DNA of 64,000 nt, from the sequence record PZ445498.1; one strand, given 5' to 3'. Positions 29,023-61,016 of the stretch are shown piece by piece; the first letter of the stretch is position 1; each line of letters begins with the position of its first letter. The position numbers and the translations under genes are program-made. Below the pieces are notes generated by a model that had not been told where the DNA came from, did not search any database, and was given only the letters and a program-made list of their open reading frames with translations. Origin of the DNA: a phage.

Positions 29023-29093
29023 GTACAATTTTTATTTTTCTGCTTCGGACTTTCTTATCAATCCGAAACTTTCTCTCTCAAATTTATGTGTAT

Positions 29094-29122
29094 ATTATAC
29101 AATAATTATGAGCAGTTGCCAA
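29094..29122 (-). promoter_or_regulatory. early sigma70-type promoter (minus strand)
   Basis: Reverse complement gives TTGGCA-N17-TATAAT followed by ACACATAAATTTGAGAGAG leader. Confidence 0.55.
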
Positions 29123-35957: not shown

Positions 35958-35990
35958 TTCTAAATGCAAAAAGGGGAAGGAGCATAGCCC
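35958..35990 (-). terminator. intrinsic terminator after D5-like gene
   Basis: On the minus strand AAGGGGAGGG...CCTTCCCCTT hairpin followed by TTTTT. Confidence 0.55.
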
Positions 35991-36016: not shown

Positions 36017-36784
36017 TTATTCAGCAGCCGCAGCTTTTGCATCCAGTTTAGCACGCTTAGCGGCACCATCATAGTCCTTAGCAACCAGACCACGACGAGA
36101 CAGCATAGATTTAACACCGCGCTCAGACTTACCAGTTTTCTCAGCGATCTCAGCAACAGTCATGTTAGCCAGATCCAGACCTTCTAACAGATCTTCACGA
36201 GTTTTAGCACTTGAAGTTTCCTGTACCGGCATAGCAGCGATACGACCTTCACGAAGCAGGCTCAGAGCTTTACCACGGATCTGCTTAATATTGCGACCGA
36301 AGTGAGCAGCGATAGCTTCAATAGTAGCACCAGCAACAACCTGATTAACGAAATCAGTTTCTTCGTCAGGAGTGAAGGAACGAACAGCAGCAGCTTTTTC
36401 AGTTGGCTTAACAGAAGCGGTCATTTCCAGACTCAGGATCTTACCCTGTACCTGCTTAGCACCGAACTGACCACCAGCTACAGCAGCAGCGATTTCAGCG
36501 TAAGTATACTGACCAGCATGAGCGTTCAGGAAATCAACCAGTTCAGCTTCTTGTTCAGGAGTCCACGGGGATTTCTGTACTTCGTTAGCTTTCTGTACTT
36601 CGAAACCTTCTTTACGCAGCTTAGAGCCAACAGAGCGAGCGGTAACGTCTTTACCAGTCTCGGTAGCCAGTTCAGCAGCGATAGCAGCTACTTGTTCTTG
36701 AGAGATTACAGCAACACCCAGAGCAGTGGCTTTTGCTTTCAGAGACTCGGTTACACCTTCTACGTTCCAGTTCAGTTTAGACAT
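36017..36784 (-). CDS. abundant early DNA-binding protein (D5-like)
   Basis: 255 aa; strongly optimal codon usage; repeated helix-turn-helix-like modules (TVAEIAEKTGKSERGVKSMLSRRGL). Confidence 0.5.
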   Translation of the reverse strand: MSKLNWNVEGVTESLKAKATALGVAVISQEQVAAIAAELATETGKDVTARSVGSKLRKEGFEVQKANEVQKSPWTPEQEAELVDFLNAHAGQYTYAEIAAAVAGGQFGAKQVQGKILSLEMTASVKPTEKAAAVRSFTPDEETDFVNQVVAGATIEAIAAHFGRNIKQIRGKALSLLREGRIAAMPVQETSSAKTREDLLEGLDLANMTVAEIAEKTGKSERGVKSMLSRRGLVAKDYDGAAKRAKLDAKAAAAE

Positions 36785-37615: not shown

Positions 37616-37679
37616 CTACAATTTTAACTAACTTTGCTTACCCTCGCCATAACTTTCTATCCCTCAACTGAATGATAAT

Positions 37680-37708
37680 AGTATATACCTAAGCGGCGAA
37701 AATGTCAA
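37680..37708 (-). promoter_or_regulatory. second candidate promoter in ligase spacer
   Basis: Reverse complement TTGACA-N17-TATACT. Confidence 0.45.
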
Positions 37709-41164: not shown

Positions 41165-41196
41165 ATTTAAAACTCCTCTCTCAAATTTATGAATCT

Positions 41197-41225
41197 ATTA
41201 TACAGAAAATTTTTGCAAGATGCAA
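41197..41225 (-). promoter_or_regulatory. early sigma70-type promoter (minus strand)
   Basis: Reverse complement TTGCAT-N17-TATAAT followed by AGATTCATAAATTTGAGAGAGGAG. Confidence 0.55.
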
Positions 41226-41233
41226 GTAAATTT

Positions 41234-41467
41234 TTAGGATTCTTTGAGCAAAGAAGCAAGCTCAGCATAGACTTTATCTAACTCAAAGCCAATGCGAAGA
41301 GACACACGAGTCTTCCGTTGTTTAAGTAACCATATGGAGACGTTAGGGATGCCAGCGAGACGAGGTGGTACAACCCTACATAGTTTCTCCGCGGTATCGT
41401 AAACAGAAGTTTTACGTTCTTTTACTGGAAACTTCCTTGTTTCCCACTTTTTATTCTTCACTGTCAT
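41234..41467 (-). CDS. hypothetical protein
   Basis: Start placed at internal ATG (MTVKNKK) preceded by GGGAG. Confidence 0.35.
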   Translation of the reverse strand: MTVKNKKWETRKFPVKERKTSVYDTAEKLCRVVPPRLAGIPNVSIWLLKQRKTRVSLRIGFELDKVYAELASLLKES

Positions 41468-44240
41468 TTCTAGCTCCCAATTCAGCAAGAGCTTCCTCAT
41501 GCATCTGACGTTCTTCATCTGTCATAAACTTAACTGGAATCGGCATACATTCGATCTTACAGTAAGTTCTGTACCAGTCCACAATCTTTTCCGTATCCAG
41601 ATCTTTACCGATACCCATCATGCCAAGATACATACGGGCATATTTTGGGTTAGCGCTCTGACCTGTCTTAAGGAAGAAATCCTTCTTCTTATTCTTAAGA
41701 GCTTCGATAAACGGTTTGATTGTTACATTTGAACACTTCTTGATATCTTCCCAAAACATGTCGTGCATCTTATGGAAGAATGCAGCTCTATCGTTTGGTT
41801 TATCCTTGATATACTGTTCAACGTGTTCCACTGTTACATCTTTAATAGAATCCAGATGATAATAGCGAACCAGAAGTAACTTGGCTTCATAGGCATCTGC
41901 ATGACGTGGTGCGCAATATTCAGGAGTTGAGTACAAAATAGCTTTGATTCGCTCTTCTGTATACTCTTTGCCTGCACCTTCGATAGTTCCCCAGCTTTCA
42001 CTGAAAATATCAATAGTTGCACCCTGATCAAGTAGATAATAACGCAAAGTACTAGTATAGTTTCTAGATTCCAGCTCACGACGACGTGCGTACAGTTGTT
42101 GGGCTAACTCAATCCAACCTTCGTCAATATTATACTGCTCGGAACCGGCAGAAAATCCACTCGTAGATTTATCAATAAAATAATAAATGTTCTGAGCACC
42201 ACGGTCGCGCCTGATTGCTTGAAAACGCATGTTTGGCGCTTGGTTTGAGGTTCTAGTGATTACGAATACGTTATCAAAATAGTTAAAGTCAACACCACTC
42301 GTTACAGATGGACTACATAATAAACAATCAATCTGTTGATCAATTAGCTCATTAGTTGTATAATCCAGAATACGTCGGATATCTACATCAGACGTAGAGT
42401 TTGAGTGAATTTCTTTAACTAACGCACCAGTATTACGACGTAATGCCATTCCCTTCTCATTCAGTTCATCCGGGCCACAGTCAGATACTAGGATTGATTT
42501 CTCCCCCATCTCTAAAGATGTTTGAAGTGCAACCCAAATACTGGATTCATCAGGGAATTCATAAGCATGAGCTTTCGCCAGCATTTTACGGTGGTGATTA
42601 TAAAATGCGACTGGTTTATCAAAATCAATCAAAGAACCATAGGCTTCAATCGTTTCTGCACTGATATCACCATCGGATAAGATAACAGTTTTAGCAGTAA
42701 TAAGGATATCACGAAGAACCTGAATACATTCACGACGGTTTTTAACAACCGGAGCGAATAACAGATCATTCATTACTGCGTCACATTCATCAATAAAGAT
42801 CGTATCAATCTGACCCACAAAGCTCTTGAACTTATGGATAGAGTGAATAGTTGAAGACATACGATCAATGGCACCACGTTTGAAGTTCAGCATATCAACT
42901 GACTTATCATACTGACCAGCACCGAATTTCTTCGCGTTAGAAGATACAAGTGCCCTAGTATTTGTGATTGCAATAAAGTTTCCTGGAAGAACACCTGCAT
43001 CTAGCCACTTAGTTACTGCGGTAGTTTTACCCGTACCAAGACTTGCCTTAACAAATGTTAAATGTCCTTTTGGTGGTACAATGTTAATTTTCAGGTATGG
43101 AACTTCTGGTGGAGAATCTGTGTCTAGACGTTTTAATGGTACACCTTTTAAGTTTGGTGGAATCTCACGTTTGGAGTTATTTACAAAGGCTTTGAGAGCC
43201 TGCTTACGACCGTTATTAAAGTAATCTTGAATATTACGACTATTATCTTTAGTCGTAATATACTCAGATAAAGCTGGTTTAATCTCACGTTCTAACCACG
43301 TAAAGTCAACACCATCTTCTAACGCTCTGTGATAAAGTTTTGGGATAATACGCAGGTACACTCCATCCTCAGCTTCTTCTAGTTCGCTGATGGTTTCTTC
43401 CACTTTATCAGATGCAGCCTTCTTGCCTTTAATTTGATCAAGTAAGGAGTAGAACTCTTCTTTAAACTCACCTCTAGTTGTCTCAAAGTCAACTAGGTTA
43501 TTAGGTAGATTCACCTTCGAACCCTTAACATACACAAGGCGTGGTTTATTCTCCGCTTTAAACGGATCGACTATACCATCATCAAATAAGGGATCTGCGA
43601 AATAGTGAAGCTGAACAGAAGAATAATAAGCTAAGTCAGCAATATCAAAGCCATACTTTTGCTTACTACTGTCATTGATAGATGTAAATAAGAACTTTAA
43701 CTGTCCCTGCGTTACCTTGACATTAGATTCTAGCATTAAGTGCATTCGGATACCTGGTTTTAATCCAGCCGAAGACGATGCATGGGCAATAAACCCTGCA
43801 TCAAGAGGAAACATATCCTCACTAATACTATTCAACATCTTAATAATATGACGTGCCATGCCAACAAGATTAAACTTGTCATAGCCACCAGTATCTACAA
43901 TACCATCCACGTCCATAGCAATAATATGACTAGGATTGGATACGTTAAAGTTTCCCCTGGTACGACGCACATTATCTTTTGGAGCTAAACATTTACCACG
44001 AATAGCTACAATATGCGGGTCTTTGGTAAGACGACGCATGATAGGTAACATTTCAGCAAGGTTTTGCGGGTCAAGTTCTTCAAGTACATCAAATTTGAAG
44101 GGCATGGAAGCTGGTTTACCTTCTGGATGCTCTTTAGAGAATCGCTTTGCAAAGGTGTAATCTTCCACTTTGATCTCTTTCCAGATGCCAGTGGCTTTAT
44201 CTCTGGAAAATCCTGCGTGACCTTGTAGGATTGAGAACAC
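41451..44240 (-). CDS. replication origin-binding-like protein / P-loop NTPase
   Basis: Walker A LGTGKTT and Walker B IFIDECD; start placed at GTG 44240 with AGGAG Shine-Dalgarno rather than the upstream ATG at 44363. Confidence 0.55.
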   Translation of the reverse strand: MFSILQGHAGFSRDKATGIWKEIKVEDYTFAKRFSKEHPEGKPASMPFKFDVLEELDPQNLAEMLPIMRRLTKDPHIVAIRGKCLAPKDNVRRTRGNFNVSNPSHIIAMDVDGIVDTGGYDKFNLVGMARHIIKMLNSISEDMFPLDAGFIAHASSSAGLKPGIRMHLMLESNVKVTQGQLKFLFTSINDSSKQKYGFDIADLAYYSSVQLHYFADPLFDDGIVDPFKAENKPRLVYVKGSKVNLPNNLVDFETTRGEFKEEFYSLLDQIKGKKAASDKVEETISELEEAEDGVYLRIIPKLYHRALEDGVDFTWLEREIKPALSEYITTKDNSRNIQDYFNNGRKQALKAFVNNSKREIPPNLKGVPLKRLDTDSPPEVPYLKINIVPPKGHLTFVKASLGTGKTTAVTKWLDAGVLPGNFIAITNTRALVSSNAKKFGAGQYDKSVDMLNFKRGAIDRMSSTIHSIHKFKSFVGQIDTIFIDECDAVMNDLLFAPVVKNRRECIQVLRDILITAKTVILSDGDISAETIEAYGSLIDFDKPVAFYNHHRKMLAKAHAYEFPDESSIWVALQTSLEMGEKSILVSDCGPDELNEKGMALRRNTGALVKEIHSNSTSDVDIRRILDYTTNELIDQQIDCLLCSPSVTSGVDFNYFDNVFVITRTSNQAPNMRFQAIRRDRGAQNIYYFIDKSTSGFSAGSEQYNIDEGWIELAQQLYARRRELESRNYTSTLRYYLLDQGATIDIFSESWGTIEGAGKEYTEERIKAILYSTPEYCAPRHADAYEAKLLLVRYYHLDSIKDVTVEHVEQYIKDKPNDRAAFFHKMHDMFWEDIKKCSNVTIKPFIEALKNKKKDFFLKTGQSANPKYARMYLGMMGIGKDLDTEKIVDWYRTYCKIECMPIPVKFMTDEERQMHEEALAELGARNDSEE

Positions 44241-44736
44241 AACAATACTCCTATGTTGGTTATTCGGATATCTTTCTTTAGGACTATTCAAAAGAATAGA
44301 ACAACTATTACTACCATTTACACAAACATTAATCATCATCAAGCAGTATGAATAAGTTATCATACCTCAGTGCTGCGCTCTCTTAACTCTTATCCAGATC
44401 AGAACCTAGGTCATTGGCCGCTAAGCCGATTCTGATTGCCCTCACTATCCTATTGGTAGGTGGCTACTGGACGTGTCACCATTCGCTGCTCTTTTCGTTC
44501 GCACCCCCATATAAAGCTCTGCCTATATAACGAGCTAAATATGCACGGTTTGGATTTACCTTTCCGAATTCAGGGTACGCAGATCACTTAATTGATAATT
44601 AACTAATGCAGTATAAACACTAGTAATAGTTAAAACAACCCTTAATGGGGCAGCCTAACTGTTCCGTATTGCGGATTGTAAACAAGAAAAATTAGCAAAA
44701 TCAATTTTTACTAATGTCTCTCAATTCAATATAAAT

Positions 44737-44765
44737 ATTATATCAAGATTTTGAGCATCCTGCAA
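44737..44765 (-). promoter_or_regulatory. early promoter about 490 nt upstream of the origin-binding-like gene
   Basis: Reverse complement TTGCAG-N17-TATAAT followed by ATTTATATTGAATTGAGAGA leader. Confidence 0.55.
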
Positions 44766-44856
44766 GTAAAATTTTTCCGAAGGTGCTATCAGTGTCTTTG
44801 AGCACAGAGAAAACCGAGCCAAAATGACTCGGTAATCAGGATTGGGCTAACGAAAA

Positions 44857-45252
44857 TCAATCATCATTTAGACCTGGGACATAGATCCCAATGCGATTTA
44901 ATTGACCTTTAGCTTCTTCGAGAATATCTTCGGTGTACTCCCAAATATCATCTTCTACTTGCAAAAGATAAGGGGATTCACCAGTTTCGGGGTCACGTGT
45001 AATGGCTAAGCCACGTGAATGGAATATAGAGAAGTTGAGGGCAACAATCAAGCCCATGCTGGACAATTCATTCCAGTCAGCTTCCCAACCATCATCTTCA
45101 TCTTCGTCCACAAATACACCTACACTAGGGTCTGTTACAGAAGTAAACGGAAATGTTACACTAACCTTGTCAACCCCCAACCAACGTGCAAGGAGCCCCT
45201 CAGCACGCTCTACCAAACTAGGATCTATCTGACGCCAAAATACTTGTTCCAT
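44857..45252 (-). CDS. hypothetical protein (tandem paralog A)
   Basis: 131 aa; shares W.EL..MGL..ALN...F....TGE.P......D.W.Y..E.....L.R.G...PGL pattern with the adjacent gene. Confidence 0.45.
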   Translation of the reverse strand: MEQVFWRQIDPSLVERAEGLLARWLGVDKVSVTFPFTSVTDPSVGVFVDEDEDDGWEADWNELSSMGLIVALNFSIFHSRGLAITRDPETGESPYLLQVEDDIWEYTEDILEEAKGQLNRIGIYVPGLNDD

Positions 45253-45261
45253 TCTGCCTCC

Positions 45262-45690
45262 TTAAGCAGTTAAACCTGGGATCATATACCCGAAACGACG
45301 AAGTTTCTGAATCCCCTCATTTACTTCCTCGGGCGAATATGACCAGCCATCACGTTCATTTACCTGGAAAGCAGGAGCTTCACCAGTGCGATAATTTACA
45401 ATAAGACGGTGATTTGCAGGCATAAACAGCTTATGATTCAAGGCAAAAACCAGACCCATTTCATCGAGTTCTTTCCAGTCTACAATCTCTTCTACTCCCT
45501 CCCCTAAATCCACGCTAACTCCAATACACGGAGCTTCCTCTAGCGGGCCTTTAAAGGATAAGAAGATATCGTTATTCTCACACCAAATCTTGAGCAGATT
45601 GATGGTTTCATTATACATACCATTAGGGAGAGAGCGCCAGAAGTTGAGAAGCATAGGATTTACCTCTTTCATGAAAATATTATTGAACAT
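45262..45690 (-). CDS. hypothetical protein (tandem paralog B)
   Basis: 142 aa; paralogous to 44857-45252. Confidence 0.45.
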   Translation of the reverse strand: MFNNIFMKEVNPMLLNFWRSLPNGMYNETINLLKIWCENNDIFLSFKGPLEEAPCIGVSVDLGEGVEEIVDWKELDEMGLVFALNHKLFMPANHRLIVNYRTGEAPAFQVNERDGWSYSPEEVNEGIQKLRRFGYMIPGLTA

Positions 45691-45692
45691 GC

Positions 45693-46232
45693 TTATACCT
45701 TAAGTTTCTGAAGAGCCTTACACATTTCAAGATTTGGACTAAACTCCAGCATATAGCTGATAGCGTTTAAATCTTGAAGGTTTATTCCAGTCCTGCCGTT
45801 TACAATAACAGAAGGAAATTGATACATCATAGCACCAGCATCATCTAGGACACACCAATGCTTGAGCTTATATTTTTCTACAAAACGTAAAACAGAATTA
45901 CCCCGAGATAAACCACCTCCAGTAAAGTCTGTTGTACCAAGAAAACGATCGATCAAACCGAGTCCGGTCATAATCTGAACGTTCTCCATTTCATTTCGTA
46001 CAGAAAACCATGAAGATACCCCAACAATCATTATTGGGGGTGGCTTAAGAAAGTTCTGAAAAGCCTGGAGTAATGGCTTGTAAACCCAATCACCACCAAA
46101 GAATAGCTTCTCACTATCTGGAGCATGATGGTGAGAGATGCTCGAATTGAGCACCCCATCAATATCCAGGAAAATCACAGGAGTATTACTTATTTCCACC
46201 AGTAGCATCCCACGTCCAGACTTTAACTTCAT
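45693..46232 (-). CDS. HAD-superfamily phosphatase-like protein
   Basis: Motif I FLDIDGVLN (DxDG[TV]); start probably at an internal Met. Confidence 0.5.
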   Translation of the reverse strand: MKLKSGRGMLLVEISNTPVIFLDIDGVLNSSISHHHAPDSEKLFFGGDWVYKPLLQAFQNFLKPPPIMIVGVSSWFSVRNEMENVQIMTGLGLIDRFLGTTDFTGGGLSRGNSVLRFVEKYKLKHWCVLDDAGAMMYQFPSVIVNGRTGINLQDLNAISYMLEFSPNLEMCKALQKLKV

Positions 46233-48020: not shown

Positions 48021-48048
48021 AGCTTTCTCCTCTCAAATTTATAAATCA

Positions 48049-48077
48049 ATTATACATAAGTTTTAGCTCGAAAGCAA
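48049..48077 (-). promoter_or_regulatory. early sigma70-type promoter (minus strand)
   Basis: Reverse complement TTGCTT-N17-TATAAT followed by TGATTTATAAATTTGAGAGGAG. Confidence 0.65.
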
Positions 48078-51465: not shown

Positions 51466-53799
51466 ATGAGCCATCGTATAGAAAAAGTAATTAAACGTGA
51501 CGGTACTGTTCAGGACTTTGCTCCTGAAAAACTCAATGATTGGGCTGCATGGGCATGTAAAGATACTGACGTAAGTTGGTCTGCCGTAGTTATGGCTGCC
51601 CTGAAAAATCTACCCAAAGGTGTTGTAGACTCCGATACACTCCAAGATGTGTTAATTAAAGCCGCTGAAGGTCTTATAAAAGACAATCCAGCATATGATA
51701 CTGTAGCAAAGGAATTACGTCTTGCGCAGATGCGTAAACGCCTATATGATTCCTTCGAACCACCTTCTCTGCGTTTCTTCCACGATCATATGGTTCGTGT
51801 TGGCGCTTGGGAAGACATGAGTGCATGGATTAGCGATGATCAGTTTGATGCTCTGAATCAAGTTATTGATCATGATCGCGATCGTTTATTCACTAGTGGT
51901 GGACTGAAACAGTTCTTCGACAAGTATTCCCGTCGTAATATTGCAACTGGTGAAATTTATGAAACTCCGCAGTTTGCCTACATGGGTATGGCAATGGCGA
52001 TGTTATCTCAACCTAACTGGACAATTCTAGATGCAATCGACCTCTACAATGCAATGTCGCTCCACAAAATCAACGTTCCTACGCCGCCACTGGTTGGTCT
52101 GCGCTCTAGTGACCGTGGATTTGCTAGTTGCTGCCTCGTGGATTCCACTGACACGCTGGATTCAATCGACACAGCCGAGCACATCGTCTTCAAAATGGTC
52201 GCAGCCAGAGCGGGAATCGGGTATCATCTTGAAAGCCGATCAATTGCTGATCCGGTGCGAAATGGGGCATTCCCGCATTCCGGAAAACTGCCATATTATC
52301 GACACATTGACCGATCAGTAAAAGCTAACACTCAGCAAACCCGTGGCGGTTCTGCTACTGTGTCTTATCCATACTTCGATCCTGAAATCATTCAGTTGAT
52401 GCAGGTTAAGCAGCAACGTGCTACAGACGAGAATAAAATCGATAAGATGGATTACTCTCTGAGCTTTAACAACCTTCTATTAAAACGTTACCTGAAAAAC
52501 GAAGATATTACGCTAATGTCCTACTTCTACGCACCAGAAGTTCATGAAGCGTTTTATGGCGAAGATGAGGCTAAGTTTGAAGAAATCTACGTGGCAGCGG
52601 AGAAACGTGTGGCTTCTCTTACAAAGATCGACCACGAAGGAAAAACAATTCCAGCAGCTCCTAGAATCTCTGCAAAAGAAATCCTAGATACTTGGTTACG
52701 TATCCGTATGGAAACAGGGCGTATGTATGCTCATCACATTGGTGAATCTAACCGTCATGGTAACTTCCTTGACCCGATTCGTATGACCAACCTATGTGTT
52801 GAAATTACTCAGCCAACCAGGCCATTCCATCACATTACGGAGCTGTATAAGACCCAAGATCAGTTAGATGATATGCGTCCAGAAGATATTGGCGAAGTAT
52901 CTCTGTGTAACTTAGGTGGAGTTGTACTAGGACGCATGGAATCTCTGGCTGAATGGGAAAAAACTTGCTACATTCTTCTGAAATTCGTTGATACCATCAT
53001 TGAAATTCAGGACTATCCGTTCCCTACTATGGAATACACGGCTAAGAAGCGTCGTAACGTAGGTATTGGTCTGATGAACGCAGCAGGTGCAATGGCAGCA
53101 GAAGGTCTGGCTTACGAAGGTGAAGAAGCCCGTAACTGGATTCACCGTGAAGCTGAGAAACTTTCTTACTTCCTGCATAAAGCCTCTGTACGTCTGGCTA
53201 AAGAACAAGGTGCATGTGACTGGTTTAATCGTACTAAACCATCCAAGGGGACTCTGGTAATCGACACGTATAAGAAAACTGTTGATGAACTGGTAACTGT
53301 AGATCTAGAAATGGATTGGGAATCTCTGCGTGCAGATATTCTGAAATATGGTATGCGTAACTCTGTTCTGACTGCTCAGATGCCCGGTGAAAGTTCCTCT
53401 GTACTGCTAGGTGTTACTAACTCTATCGAACCGCCTCGTAAGATTGTATCTATCAAGGGTAGTGCAGTGAATAAAGTAATTGCAATTGCTCCAGGTGCAA
53501 CTGATTGGGATACATTAATGAGTTATAAACTGGCTTATGATGTAGATCGTATCGAGTGGGTCAAATGGGTAGCAACCATGCAGAAATTCTTCAGTCAGTC
53601 TATAAGTACGAATATGTACTATGACTACACCAAGTTTGAGAATGAAATTATTCCTGGCCCAGTAGTAGTTCGTGATTTCATGACTGCTGTTAAGTACGGT
53701 TGGAAAACTTTCTACTATGCAAACTTTAACACCGAGAATGGTGGTGGTGCAGGGGAAGAAACTGCTGCTGGATGCGCATCTGGTGGTTGTCAATTATAA
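51466..53799 (+). CDS. nrdA: ribonucleoside-diphosphate reductase, large subunit (class Ia)
   Basis: ATP-cone-like N-terminus, catalytic Cys-containing core, C-terminal Cys pair (CASGGCQL); start at ATG 51466 (MSHRIEKV) after AAGGAAA. Confidence 0.9.
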   Translation: MSHRIEKVIKRDGTVQDFAPEKLNDWAAWACKDTDVSWSAVVMAALKNLPKGVVDSDTLQDVLIKAAEGLIKDNPAYDTVAKELRLAQMRKRLYDSFEPPSLRFFHDHMVRVGAWEDMSAWISDDQFDALNQVIDHDRDRLFTSGGLKQFFDKYSRRNIATGEIYETPQFAYMGMAMAMLSQPNWTILDAIDLYNAMSLHKINVPTPPLVGLRSSDRGFASCCLVDSTDTLDSIDTAEHIVFKMVAARAGIGYHLESRSIADPVRNGAFPHSGKLPYYRHIDRSVKANTQQTRGGSATVSYPYFDPEIIQLMQVKQQRATDENKIDKMDYSLSFNNLLLKRYLKNEDITLMSYFYAPEVHEAFYGEDEAKFEEIYVAAEKRVASLTKIDHEGKTIPAAPRISAKEILDTWLRIRMETGRMYAHHIGESNRHGNFLDPIRMTNLCVEITQPTRPFHHITELYKTQDQLDDMRPEDIGEVSLCNLGGVVLGRMESLAEWEKTCYILLKFVDTIIEIQDYPFPTMEYTAKKRRNVGIGLMNAAGAMAAEGLAYEGEEARNWIHREAEKLSYFLHKASVRLAKEQGACDWFNRTKPSKGTLVIDTYKKTVDELVTVDLEMDWESLRADILKYGMRNSVLTAQMPGESSSVLLGVTNSIEPPRKIVSIKGSAVNKVIAIAPGATDWDTLMSYKLAYDVDRIEWVKWVATMQKFFSQSISTNMYYDYTKFENEIIPGPVVVRDFMTAVKYGWKTFYYANFNTENGGGAGEETAAGCASGGCQL

Positions 53800-60947: not shown

Positions 60948-60976
60948 TTGCTTTCAGCTCCAAAATTCTGTATAAT
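60948..60976 (+). promoter_or_regulatory. early promoter
   Basis: TTGCTTTCAG...TTCTGTATAAT then ATATTCATAAATTTGAGAGAACAA; matches the architecture I recall for T5 early promoters. Confidence 0.7.
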
Positions 60977-61016
60977 ATATTCATAAATTTGAGAGAACAA
61001 CAAAAGGAAAATAATT

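What the first reader, a model, noticed from the sequence alone, without database searches (positions are those of the whole stretch)
44241..44736. Roughly 490-nt untranslated, promoter-proximal region upstream of the origin-binding-like gene
A canonical early promoter (reverse complement TTGCAG-N17-TATAAT at 44737-44765, with the conserved ATTGAATTGAGAGA leader) is followed on the minus strand by about 490 nt with no credible ORF before the best start of the origin-binding-like gene (GTG 44240, AGGAG Shine-Dalgarno). The region is GC-richer than its flanks and contains several hairpins (for example GGTGACACGTCCAGTAGCCACC and a CCTAGG palindrome). It could be a structured leader or small RNA, or, given the neighbouring gene, a replication origin.
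Basis: partly seen in the sequence, partly recalled or inferred. Interest (0 to 1): 0.6.

Follow-up and report, generated by a model that had tools for sequence, protein, structure and literature searches.

The report
Structured RNA leader of T5 helicase gene
The ~490-base untranslated stretch between an early promoter and the D2 replication-helicase gene of this T5-like phage folds into a large RNA structure that is conserved across related phages and matches no described RNA family; its function is unknown.

Summary
The window is a T5-like phage. An extended -10 early promoter (44737-44765, minus strand) is followed by about 490 nt with no conserved ORF. The D2/T5.108 helicase gene starts at GTG 44240 behind an AGGAG. 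The ATG at 44363, used in many GenBank records, is not conserved.

About 400 nt of this leader form a conserved multi-helix RNA: an invariant 5' stem-loop, then a core closed by long-range helices P1 and P2 that holds P3, Pb, Pc, P4, P5 (invariant CUUAGCGG loop) and P6.
- On MAFFT alignments, 95% of cells pair. 27 of 49 pairs (14 of 23 in the interior) show compensatory changes, against 14.7 and 4.5 in shuffles.
- G.U pairs outnumber A.C 227 to 17, so the transcribed strand is the one that folds.
- Within one type the leader is more conserved than synonymous sites of D2; between types its interior is replaced.

Rfam gives no hit, even at E<=10, and no paper or annotation describing it was found.

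Function is inferred, not shown. Most likely it is a cis-acting leader controlling D2 expression. Rivals are a ColE1 RNA II-like origin or primer transcript and a processed trans-acting RNA. No DNA-level origin features were found.

The parts
44813..44833 (-). Intrinsic terminator hairpin plus U-tract that ends the upstream DUF7415 gene cluster
   Evidence: Terminator scan. A terminator is annotated at the same place in T5 AY543070. The upstream ORFs are DUF7415.
44737..44765 (-). T5-type early promoter: -35 TTGCAG (44765-44760), 17-nt spacer, extended -10 TGATATAAT (44745-44737)
   Evidence: Sequence. Annotated as a promoter in T5 and S114. The cassette recurs 7 times in the window.
44717..44730 (-). 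Predicted transcript start (about 44730) and conserved initial transcribed sequence ATTGAATTGAGAGA
   Evidence: The start site is inferred from its spacing to the -10; it is not mapped.
44680..44715 (-). AU-rich 5' hairpin (AUUAGUAAAA / UUUUGCUAAU, 44715-44691) followed by the pyrimidine tract UUUUCUUGUUU (44690-44680). The tract is the 5' strand of the proposed closing helix P0.
   Evidence: MFE fold. Alifold pairs UUCUUGU with A(U/C)AGGAG. In the single-sequence MFE the tract pairs instead with AAAGAAAG.
44635..44679 (-). S1 stem-loop: outer stem ACAAUCC/GGGUUGU and inner hairpin GGAACAGUUAGGCUGCC. This is the most conserved sequence block of the leader.
   Evidence: Invariant columns 21-45 of alignment A2. 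CAGU/GCUG becomes CGGU/GCCG in metagenomic type H.
44303..44631 (-). Core RNA domain closed by the long-range helix P1 (44631-44620 with 44315-44303)
   Evidence: P1: 13 of 18 pairs carry compensatory changes. In L126 all 23 P1 positions pair, 9 of them as G.U.
44370..44587 (-). Helix P2 (GUG-AU-CUGCGU 44587-44577 with GCGCAG-CAC 44378-44370), enclosing the multi-branch interior
   Evidence: 7 of 9 pairs carry compensatory changes. Six different complementary sequence versions exist.
44487..44576 (-). 5' interior sub-domain: P3 (44576-44573 with 44506-44503), hairpin Pb (44536-44532 with 44519-44515) and hairpin Pc (about 44503-44487)
   Evidence: Curated helix table. In types B/H/C/C2 the equivalent helices give 95% pairing, with 14 of 23 pairs compensatory against 4.5 in shuffles.
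44459..44480 (-). Its loop contains the 5' strand of P4 (UCCAG 44471-44467), so Pd and P4 may form a pseudoknot or be alternatives.
   Evidence: Pd itself has only mixed comparative support: the window and T5 differ by one change that breaks a pair and one that repairs a pair.
44393..44471 (-). Helix P4 (UCCAG 44471-44467 with CUGGA 44397-44393), enclosing P5
   Evidence: UCCAG/CUGGA in the window, UACAG/CUGUA in T5 and other complementary versions in other types. This helix was placed by hand, so the evidence is weaker.
44398..44436 (-). Hairpin P5: outer stem AUCAGAAUC/GGUUCUGAU, a 3' internal loop that includes CCTAGG, and the terminal hairpin GGCUUAGCGGCC (44427-44416) with invariant CUUAGCGG
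   Evidence: Eight types have eight different, all complementary, outer stems. CUUAGCGG is invariant.
44346..44365 (-). Hairpin P6 (GUAUGA/UCAUAC). It contains the non-conserved ATG at 44363.
   Evidence: Seven complementary versions across types. Partly recovered by alifold.
44271..44299 (-). 3' hairpin CUAUUC-UUUU-GAAUAG (44299-44284) and purine tract UAAAGAAAGA (44280-44271). There is no U-tract, so it is not a terminator.
   Evidence: It is invariant in types A, A2 and B, so there is no covariation for or against it.
44238..44252 (-). Shine-Dalgarno AGGAG (44252-44248), 7-nt spacer and GTG start codon (44240-44238) of D2
   Evidence: Conserved in 31 loci. T5 records start D2 here.
41451..44240 (-). 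D2 / T5.108 gene (929 aa): SF2 helicase annotated as 'replication origin binding protein'
   Evidence: Pfam Herpes_ori_bp, E = 5e-5. D2 is a bipolar helicase (PMC3632103).

Best explanation
The region is the 5' untranslated leader of the mRNA for the D2 (T5.108) replication helicase. It is transcribed by host RNA polymerase from a T5-type early promoter (predicted start about 44730) and read through into D2 without a terminator.

About 400 nt of the leader (44679-44284) fold into a conserved multi-helix RNA:
- an invariant 5' stem-loop, S1;
- a core closed by the long-range helices P1 and P2;
- inside the core, two sub-domains (P3/Pb/Pc and P4/P5) and a side hairpin, P6;
- invariant unpaired motifs: AUACGGAACAGU..GGCUGC and CUUAGCGG in all types, and GAGAAGUG in most (GAAUGGUG in this window).

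The structured RNA is a new family confined to T5-like phages. This part is shown.

The mechanism is inferred. The fold most likely acts in cis on D2 expression. A trans factor would bind the invariant loops. The likeliest candidate is a phage replication protein, as in T4 gene 32 and gene 43 autoregulation. A small ligand is less likely. Binding would change the pairing of the pyrimidine tract at the base of the domain with the purine tract or Shine-Dalgarno region, or the stability and processing of the mRNA. The effect would be to set how much helicase is made early in infection.
For: Transcription context:
- A promoter lies upstream, the upstream operon ends in a terminator, and no terminator lies before D2.
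- This leader is the only long one among the 7 copies of the promoter cassette in the window.

Structure:
- The sense strand folds to -144.3 kcal/mol (z = -4.66); the antisense strand to -110.7 (z = -2.78).
- RNAalifold predicts 49 pairs. 95% of cells pair and 27 pairs carry changes on both sides, against 14.7 +/- 1.8 in shuffles (0 of 500 reach it). Slid controls give 35-55% paired.
- The interior domain on an independent MAFFT alignment gives 95% paired, with 14 of 23 pairs compensatory against 4.5.
- Helices P1, P2, P3, Pb, P4, P5 and P6 each exist in 6-8 different complementary sequence versions.

Strand:
- 227 G.U cells against 17 A.C cells.
- Alifold gives 53 pairs on the sense strand and 32 on the antisense strand.

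Selection:
- Window against T5: D2 third codon positions are 70% identical, the leader interior 92% and the leader's first 60 nt 98%.

Other:
- No conserved ORF.
- The alifold consensus pairs the 5' pyrimidine tract with the SD region, 97.6% of cells paired.
- Relatives in Vibrio and Aeromonas phages have a terminator-like hairpin about 80 nt before the gene. That is the layout of a regulated leader.
Against: - Thermodynamic models do not show consistent sequestration of the SD across types. The mean unpaired probability of the SD ranges from 0.01 to 0.78, with different partners.
- The P0-SD pairing has almost no covariation and competes with pairing to AAAGAAA.
- In Proteus PM135-like phages a second consensus promoter lies between the non-coding region and D2, so D2 can be expressed there without the leader.
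- A fold of about 400 nt is much larger than known protein operators and most riboswitches.
- No binding partner, transcript map or expression data were found.
Confidence: 0.45

Rival explanations
1. Origin or primer transcript. Transcription from the strong early promoter makes a structured RNA that, like ColE1 RNA II or the T4 oriF/oriG transcripts, forms a persistent RNA-DNA hybrid. The hybrid primes or opens the phage's central replication origin, next to the gene of the initiator-like helicase D2.
For: - The equivalent site in T5 is at 48.5-48.9% of the 121,750-bp genome.
- Old electron microscopy reported internal bidirectional origins in T5 (Bourguignon et al. 1976, cited in PMC3632103). 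My recollection that the primary one is near the centre is from memory only.
- D2 resembles herpesvirus UL9 origin-binding helicases.
- The transcript is about 490 nt long and structured, with selection on the RNA fold, as for RNA II.
- A long non-coding region with its own strong promoter sits upstream of the D2 homolog in Proteus, Vibrio and Aeromonas Demerecviridae, even where D2 has a second promoter.
- The interior occurs in discrete, swapped types, as expected of a specificity determinant.
- An invariant purine tract UAAAGAAAGA lies at the 3' end.
Against: - No iterons or repeated protein-binding sites.
- No GC-skew inflection at 44.5 kb; skew follows gene orientation.
- No significant antisense promoter for an RNA I-like regulator: 5 promoter-like sites against 3.5 expected.
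- The transcript runs into an ORF with a good SD, which RNA II does not.
- No replication mapping data were available.
Confidence: 0.2
2. Trans-acting stable non-coding RNA. The core domain is cut out of the leader, for example by RNase III at the roughly 40-bp P1-P2 stack, and works on its own as a scaffold, decoy or anti-defence RNA. This would resemble the large ornate phage-associated RNAs GOLLD and ROOL.
For: - The size and complexity (about 400 nt, at least 10 helices, invariant junction motifs, GNRA/UUCG-type loops in several types) are more typical of large ncRNAs than of leaders.
- The fold is a discrete module that does not consistently involve the SD.
- PM135-like phages have separate promoters for the non-coding region and for D2.
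- Relatives have terminator-like hairpins after the non-coding region.
- The interior is diversified into discrete types.
Against: - No terminator or obvious 3' end in this phage.
- The position immediately upstream of D2 is strictly conserved in every phage that has the RNA.
- No copy was found in any other context or in bacterial genomes.
- No Rfam relationship to known large RNAs.
Confidence: 0.2
3. DNA-level element: a duplex or cruciform origin, protein-binding array or nick site, with the apparent RNA structure being incidental.
For: It lies next to an 'origin-binding' helicase gene and has an AT-rich 5' part (GC 0.31 at 44600-44799).
Against: - G.U cells outnumber A.C cells 227 to 17, so only one strand keeps its pairing.
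- The antisense fold is 34 kcal/mol weaker.
- No direct-repeat families beyond chance.
- Long-range helices about 300 nt apart covary, which duplex DNA does not require.
Confidence: 0.04
4. A missed small protein gene, or a longer D2 that starts at ATG 44363.
For: - Several GenBank records annotate the 970-aa form or small ORFs inside the region.
- An antisense 43-aa GTG ORF is shared by the window and T5.
Against: - The ATG extension is broken by stops or lacks the ATG in most relatives. The ATG lies inside hairpin P6 and has no usable SD.
- No ORF keeps its position across types.
- The substitution pattern is paired-site covariation, not codon-like.
Confidence: 0.03

Closest known systems
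ColE1-type plasmid RNA II (replication primer precursor)
   Same: A promoter-proximal untranslated transcript of about 500 nt whose specific multi-helix fold is under selection. It lies next to replication functions and occurs in discrete sequence types.
   Different: No antisense RNA I promoter, no defined origin or RNase H site, and no sequence or Rfam similarity. The transcript continues into a translated gene. The replicon is a phage, not a plasmid.
Translational operators of phage T4 replication genes (gene 32 pseudoknot, gene 43 hairpin, RegA sites)
   Same: A structured element in the 5' leader of a phage replication-protein mRNA, where autoregulation by the encoded protein is the precedent.
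   Different: Those operators are 20-40 nt and overlap or abut the ribosome-binding site. This fold is about 400 nt, and its core ends about 50 nt upstream of the SD.
Riboswitches and other large cis-regulatory leaders (cobalamin, T-box, ribosomal-protein leaders)
   Same: 5' UTR position, covarying helices around invariant junction and loop nucleotides, and possible alternative pairing that involves the SD. Relatives have a terminator-like hairpin downstream.
   Different: No Rfam hit even at E<=10. No recognisable expression platform is shared by all types. It is larger than nearly all known classes. The ligand or factor is unknown.
Large ornate phage- or prophage-associated RNAs (GOLLD, ROOL, HEARO, OLE)
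   Same: Large, many-helix, phage-borne RNAs of unknown function discovered by covariation.
   Different: No match to their covariance models. Those are free-standing genes, often next to tRNAs and mostly in Firmicutes and other lineages. This RNA is fixed upstream of one gene in enterobacterial T5-like phages.
T4 oriF/oriG and T7 primary origin (transcription-activated phage origins)
   Same: A strong promoter followed by an AT-rich stretch near replication genes, where the transcript could prime or open DNA.
   Different: Those origins need no conserved RNA secondary structure, whereas here the fold is the conserved feature. No unwinding element or hybrid has been shown.

Membership tests
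Any Rfam 15 family (including riboswitches, RNase P, tmRNA, group I/II introns, 6S, GOLLD/ROOL/OLE/HEARO) | A match to the family covariance model | tested here: not met
   No hit in the region at E<=1 over 43000-46000. None on 12 variant loci. Zero hits at E<=10 on 44230-44740 alone. No tRNA or tmRNA.
Cis-regulatory structured 5' leader | Lies in the transcript between the promoter and the regulated ORF, with no intervening terminator | tested here: met
   Promoter at 44765-44737, no terminator-like site down to GTG 44240, and the same arrangement in T5. The transcript itself is not mapped.
Cis-regulatory structured 5' leader | Conserved secondary structure supported by compensatory changes on the sense strand | tested here: met
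Cis-regulatory structured 5' leader | An expression platform: regulated SD/start sequestration or a terminator/antiterminator | tested here: inconclusive
   Alifold pairs UUCUUGU with the SD. Per-type partition functions give inconsistent SD accessibility and partners. There is no terminator in this phage.
Cis-regulatory structured 5' leader | Binding of a ligand or protein that changes expression | not testable with these tools
   Needs in-line or SHAPE probing, pull-downs and reporter assays.
ColE1 RNA II-type primer / R-loop origin | A structured untranslated transcript starting a few hundred nt upstream of the initiation site | tested here: inconclusive
   A structured ~490-nt transcript is present, but no initiation site is known and the transcript enters an ORF.
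ColE1 RNA II-type primer / R-loop origin | An antisense regulator RNA (RNA I) with its own promoter | tested here: not met
   No promoter-like site on the + strand inside 44241-44736. In total 5 sites were found against 3.5 +/- 1.9 expected.
ColE1 RNA II-type primer / R-loop origin | A persistent RNA-DNA hybrid processed by RNase H, with DNA synthesis starting there | not testable with these tools
   Needs DRIP, RNase H mapping and replication-initiation mapping.
Iteron or initiator-box duplex origin | Several direct repeats (binding sites) next to an AT-rich unwinding element | tested here: not met
   Only two-copy families of 9-20 nt at 70-100% identity, scattered. No paralogous motif copies in the window. 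No skew inflection.
Protein-coding gene (small ORF or N-terminal extension of D2) | An open reading frame conserved in position and frame among relatives | tested here: not met

The most novel reading that the evidence does not exclude
The fold is the RNA component of T5's undefined central replication origin. In this reading an RNA II-like structured primer or R-loop-forming transcript is recognised by the adjacent D2 helicase, and the discrete interior types act as origin-initiator specificity determinants. The evidence equally allows a new class of large riboswitch or ribozyme-like leader that controls a phage replication gene.
Probability: 0.2. Interest if true: 0.85.

Novelty: new variant of a known kind. 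Interest (0 to 1): 0.62.

Why it matters
T5 has been a model phage for some sixty years, yet this stretch is blank in its reference annotations and absent from Rfam.
- A covariation-supported RNA of about 400 nt, more conserved than synonymous sites, fixed upstream of an essential replication helicase in T5-like phages would add a new large RNA family in a tractable system.
- It gives a concrete, mutable candidate for two open questions: how T5 sets the level of its replication proteins, and where and how T5 replication starts.
- It corrects the D2 start codon in many database records.
- It shows that the leader's interior comes in discrete exchangeable types, which hints at a specificity function.

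Tried and rejected
- **Rfam.** Scans at relaxed thresholds on the window and on 12 variant loci found nothing. ARAGORN found nothing.
- **nhmmer.** A profile of 10 leaders run against more distant loci (types F and G, Vibrio, Aeromonas, 44%-identity relatives) gave no significant hit.
- **Covariance model R1.** Built from the 5' interior domain of types B/H/C/C2. It placed types A, A2 and E correctly, but only at noise-level scores (7.5-13 bits), and found nothing in F, G or Vibrio. The interior architecture is therefore not shared well enough for one model. Because MAFFT does not align the 3' strands of P4 and P5 in register, no further models were built.
- **Motif scans of IMG/VR.** ACGGAACAGTNNGGCTGCCCCAT found only the same T5-like contigs. 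GAGAAGTG-N50-80-GCTTAGCGGC gave extra hits, but these were one unrelated phage lineage, a tandem repeat and scattered unrelated matches.
- **D2-based scans.** The metagenome scan added one new type, L126. The bacterial-genome scan found no relatives.
- **Vibrio-phage leaders.** The Chloris leader folds with z = -0.62. The alifold covariation term is about 0. Homology is unresolved.
- **SD-sequestration model.** Not consistently supported.
- **Kissing interaction.** The P5 loop is complementary to a 10-mer near the end of the D5 gene, upstream of dnaB. The 10-mer lies in conserved coding sequence and changes in Klebsiella and Pantoea phages, so it is probably chance.
- **Resemblance to RNase P motifs.** UAGGCUGC and CGGCUUA.CGG looked similar by eye. 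This was rejected because the Rfam models give no hit.
- **Literature.** Searches found no description of this leader, no T5 transcriptome and no mapped origin. A 2023 catalogue of more than 10,000 candidate phage RNAs could not be checked, because its main text does not mention T5-like phages and its supplements are not held.

Full report
**What the window is.** The 801 nt around the finding match 523 phage records at 80-100% identity, all of them T5-like (Demerecviridae: Epseptimavirus, Tequintavirus and relatives). The downstream gene is D2/T5.108. It is annotated as 'replication origin binding protein', helicase or 'primase C'. It has been characterised as a bipolar SF2 helicase related to herpesvirus UL9 (PMC3632103) and has a weak Pfam Herpes_ori_bp match. 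The two upstream ORFs are DUF7415 paralogs.

On the minus strand:
- TTGCAG (44765-44760), a 17-nt spacer and TGATATAAT (44745-44737) form an extended -10 promoter. T5 and S114 records annotate a promoter there.
- The cassette TATAAT-N12-TTGAGAGA occurs 7 times in the window against 1.27 expected. The six other copies are followed by a start codon within 8-177 nt; this one is followed by 476 nt.
- The upstream operon ends in an intrinsic terminator at 44833-44813. No terminator-like site lies between the promoter and D2.
- GTG 44240 with AGGAG is the conserved start in 31 related loci, down to 55% protein identity. The extension to ATG 44363, used by many GenBank records, is broken or lacks the ATG in most. 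The N-terminus MFSIL... aligns from residue 1 even with relatives of 26-33% identity.
- No ORF of 25 aa or more keeps its position across sequence types.
- The GC enrichment is modest: 0.46 against 0.31-0.375.

**The region is a structured RNA.**
- The sense strand folds to -144.3 kcal/mol (z = -4.66, 0 of 100 shuffles). The antisense strand folds to -110.7 (z = -2.78).
- A MAFFT alignment of 24 leaders (A2) gives an RNAalifold consensus of 49 pairs. On it, 95.0% of cells form standard pairs (84.5% in shuffles). 27 pairs have changes on both sides, against 14.7 +/- 1.8 in shuffles (0 of 500 reach it). Sliding the partners by 1-3 columns drops pairing to 35-55% and compensated pairs to 14 or fewer.
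- The long-range helix P1 has 13 of 18 pairs compensated, and P2 has 7 of 9.
- An independent MAFFT alignment of the 5' interior domain of four divergent types (A4) supports P3, Pb and Pc. 95% of cells pair, and 14 of 23 pairs are compensated against 4.5 +/- 1.7 in shuffles.
- Anchored inspection of nine type representatives shows 6-8 different, all complementary, sequence versions for each of P1, P2, P3, Pb, P4, P5 and P6. These helices were placed by hand relative to invariant motifs, so they count as weaker evidence than the two formal tests.
- In the metagenomic type L126 the 23-bp P1 pairs at every position, 9 of them as G.U.
- Over A2 there are 227 G.U cells and 17 A.C cells. Only the D2-sense strand keeps its pairing: 95% against 77%. 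Alifold on the mirrored alignment finds 32 pairs instead of 53.
- UUCG and GNRA-type loops occur in several types.

**Anatomy in the window** (minus strand, 5' to 3'):
- predicted start about 44730;
- conserved initial sequence, 44730-44717;
- AU-rich hairpin, 44715-44691, then the pyrimidine tract 44690-44680;
- S1 stem-loop, 44679-44635, with the invariant GGAACAGUUAGGCUGCC;
- P1, 44631-44620 with 44315-44303;
- P2, 44587-44577 with 44378-44370;
- P3, 44576-44573 with 44506-44503, containing Pb (44536-44515);
- Pc, about 44503-44487;
- P4, 44471-44467 with 44397-44393;
- P5, 44436-44398, ending in GGCUUAGCGGCC (44427-44416);
- P6, 44365-44346;
- a small hairpin, 44299-44284;
- the purine tract, 44280-44271;
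- SD, 44252-44248;
- GTG, 44240.

The CCTAGG palindrome lies in the P5 internal loop and is type-specific.

**Evolution.**
- Between the window and T5, D2 third codon positions are 70% identical. The leader interior is 92% identical and its first 60 nt are 98% identical, so the leader is under stronger constraint than synonymous sites.
- Between the window and DT57C-type phages, third positions are 65% identical and the 5' block 96%, but the interior only 46%. The interior therefore exists in discrete, replaced types that keep the same helices.
- At least eight alignable types exist: A, A2, B, C (a 122,024-bp contig, probably Pectobacterium My1), C2, E (Sugarlandvirus) and H.
- Providencia-type (F) and Proteus PM135-like (G) phages share the P5 motif, a stem plus CUUAGCGG hairpin. 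This is by-eye evidence only.
- D2 homologs of 44% identity have short AT-rich upstream regions and no such element.
- Vibrio and Aeromonas Demerecviridae keep a 700-1100-nt gene-poor region, with a strong promoter in the Vibrio loci, upstream of the D2 homolog. Homology to this RNA could not be shown.
- The element was found only upstream of D2, never elsewhere and never in bacterial genomes.

**Comparison with what is known.** Rfam 15 gives no hit in the region at E<=1, none on 12 variant loci, and none at E<=10 on the region alone. There are no tRNA or tmRNA genes. T5 reference annotations leave the 470 nt between promoter and CDS blank. I found no paper describing the leader, a T5 transcriptome or a mapped T5 origin. 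One large catalogue of candidate phage RNAs could not be checked.

**How it may work.** What is shown is a promoter-proximal, read-through, conserved RNA fold on the sense strand. Everything beyond that is inference.
- I favour a cis-acting leader that controls D2 expression (0.45). The position is strictly fixed immediately upstream of D2. There is no terminator. A pyrimidine tract at the base of the domain can pair with the purine tract or the SD. Autoregulated replication-gene leaders in T4 provide a precedent. Against this, predicted SD accessibility is inconsistent across types, the fold is far larger than known operators, and PM135-like phages have a second consensus promoter right before D2.
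- An RNA II-like origin or primer transcript (0.2) fits the neighbourhood of an initiator-like helicase. It also fits the position at 48.5-48.9% of the T5 genome, the strong promoter and the discrete types. There are no iterons, no skew signal, no antisense promoter and no replication data.
- A processed trans-acting RNA (0.2) fits the size and modularity. It has no support from a terminator or from any occurrence in another context.
- Duplex-DNA and coding explanations are effectively excluded.

**Verdict.** It is a new RNA family of a known general kind, in a classic model phage, with function untested.

Noticed in passing
window 44241-44363 (minus strand) and many GenBank records (e.g. L001, L002, L003): D2 is often annotated as a 970-aa protein starting at the ATG equivalent to 44363. 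That ATG and the 41-codon extension are not conserved; the conserved start is GTG 44240 (929 aa). Many database entries therefore carry a spurious N-terminal extension that lies inside RNA hairpin P6.
   Followed up: yes
L005 about 1570-1667, L006 about 1583-1680, L019, L021 (equivalent to an insertion near window 44690): A nearly identical insert of about 97 nt lies in the leader just after the 5' hairpin, bracketed by TTTTTCTT/TTTTTTCTT direct repeats. It is present in phages with different interior types (A, A2, B) and in 3 of 31 IMG/VR loci. Its fold is no better than shuffles (z = -0.28). It may be an optional module, a repeat-mediated indel or a tiny mobile insert.
   Followed up: partly
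window 44303-44631 compared with L006, L030, L033, L101, L068 and L126: The interior of the leader comes in discrete types. It is 92% identical within a type and about 45% identical between types, while the flanking leader sequence stays 96-98% identical and D2 synonymous sites 65-70%. This suggests cassette-like replacement by recombination.
   Followed up: partly
L103/L104 805-833 and 1535-1564: In Proteus PM135-like phages, two perfect 12/12 consensus sigma-70 promoters bracket about 700 nt of non-coding DNA upstream of D2. The second lies about 40 nt before the D2 start codon.
   Followed up: partly
L069-L072, L113-L118: Vibrio and Aeromonas Demerecviridae have 700-1100-nt gene-poor regions upstream of the D2 homolog. 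The Vibrio loci start with a strong promoter and share conserved islands (GGTAACTG, CGGAGGTA, TAAGAGTG, ACGTAGAG). L071 and L072 end the region with a hairpin plus U6 terminator about 80 nt before the gene. Whether this is the same RNA family is unresolved.
   Followed up: partly
window 29074-29099, 37660-37685, 41177-41202, 44717-44742, 48029-48054, 52004-52029 (minus strand); 60971-60996 (plus strand): A recurrent T5-type promoter cassette, TATAAT-N12-TTGAGAGA, occurs 7 times against 1.27 expected. It marks the early transcription units of the window.
   Followed up: yes
window 36055-36064 (mRNA sense on the minus strand), 3' end of the D5-like HTH gene, about 70 nt upstream of the dnaB-like start at 35985: GCCGCUAAGC is perfectly complementary to the invariant P5 loop GCUUAGCGGC of the leader. 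It lies in highly conserved coding sequence and changes to GCTGCTAAGC and GCTGCAAAGC in Klebsiella and Pantoea phages. It is probably a chance match (about 0.12 expected per window).
   Followed up: partly
window 44857-45252 and 45262-45690 (minus strand): Two tandem paralogous DUF7415 genes (T5.106 and T5.107 equivalents) lie immediately upstream, ending at the terminator. Their function is unknown.
   Followed up: no
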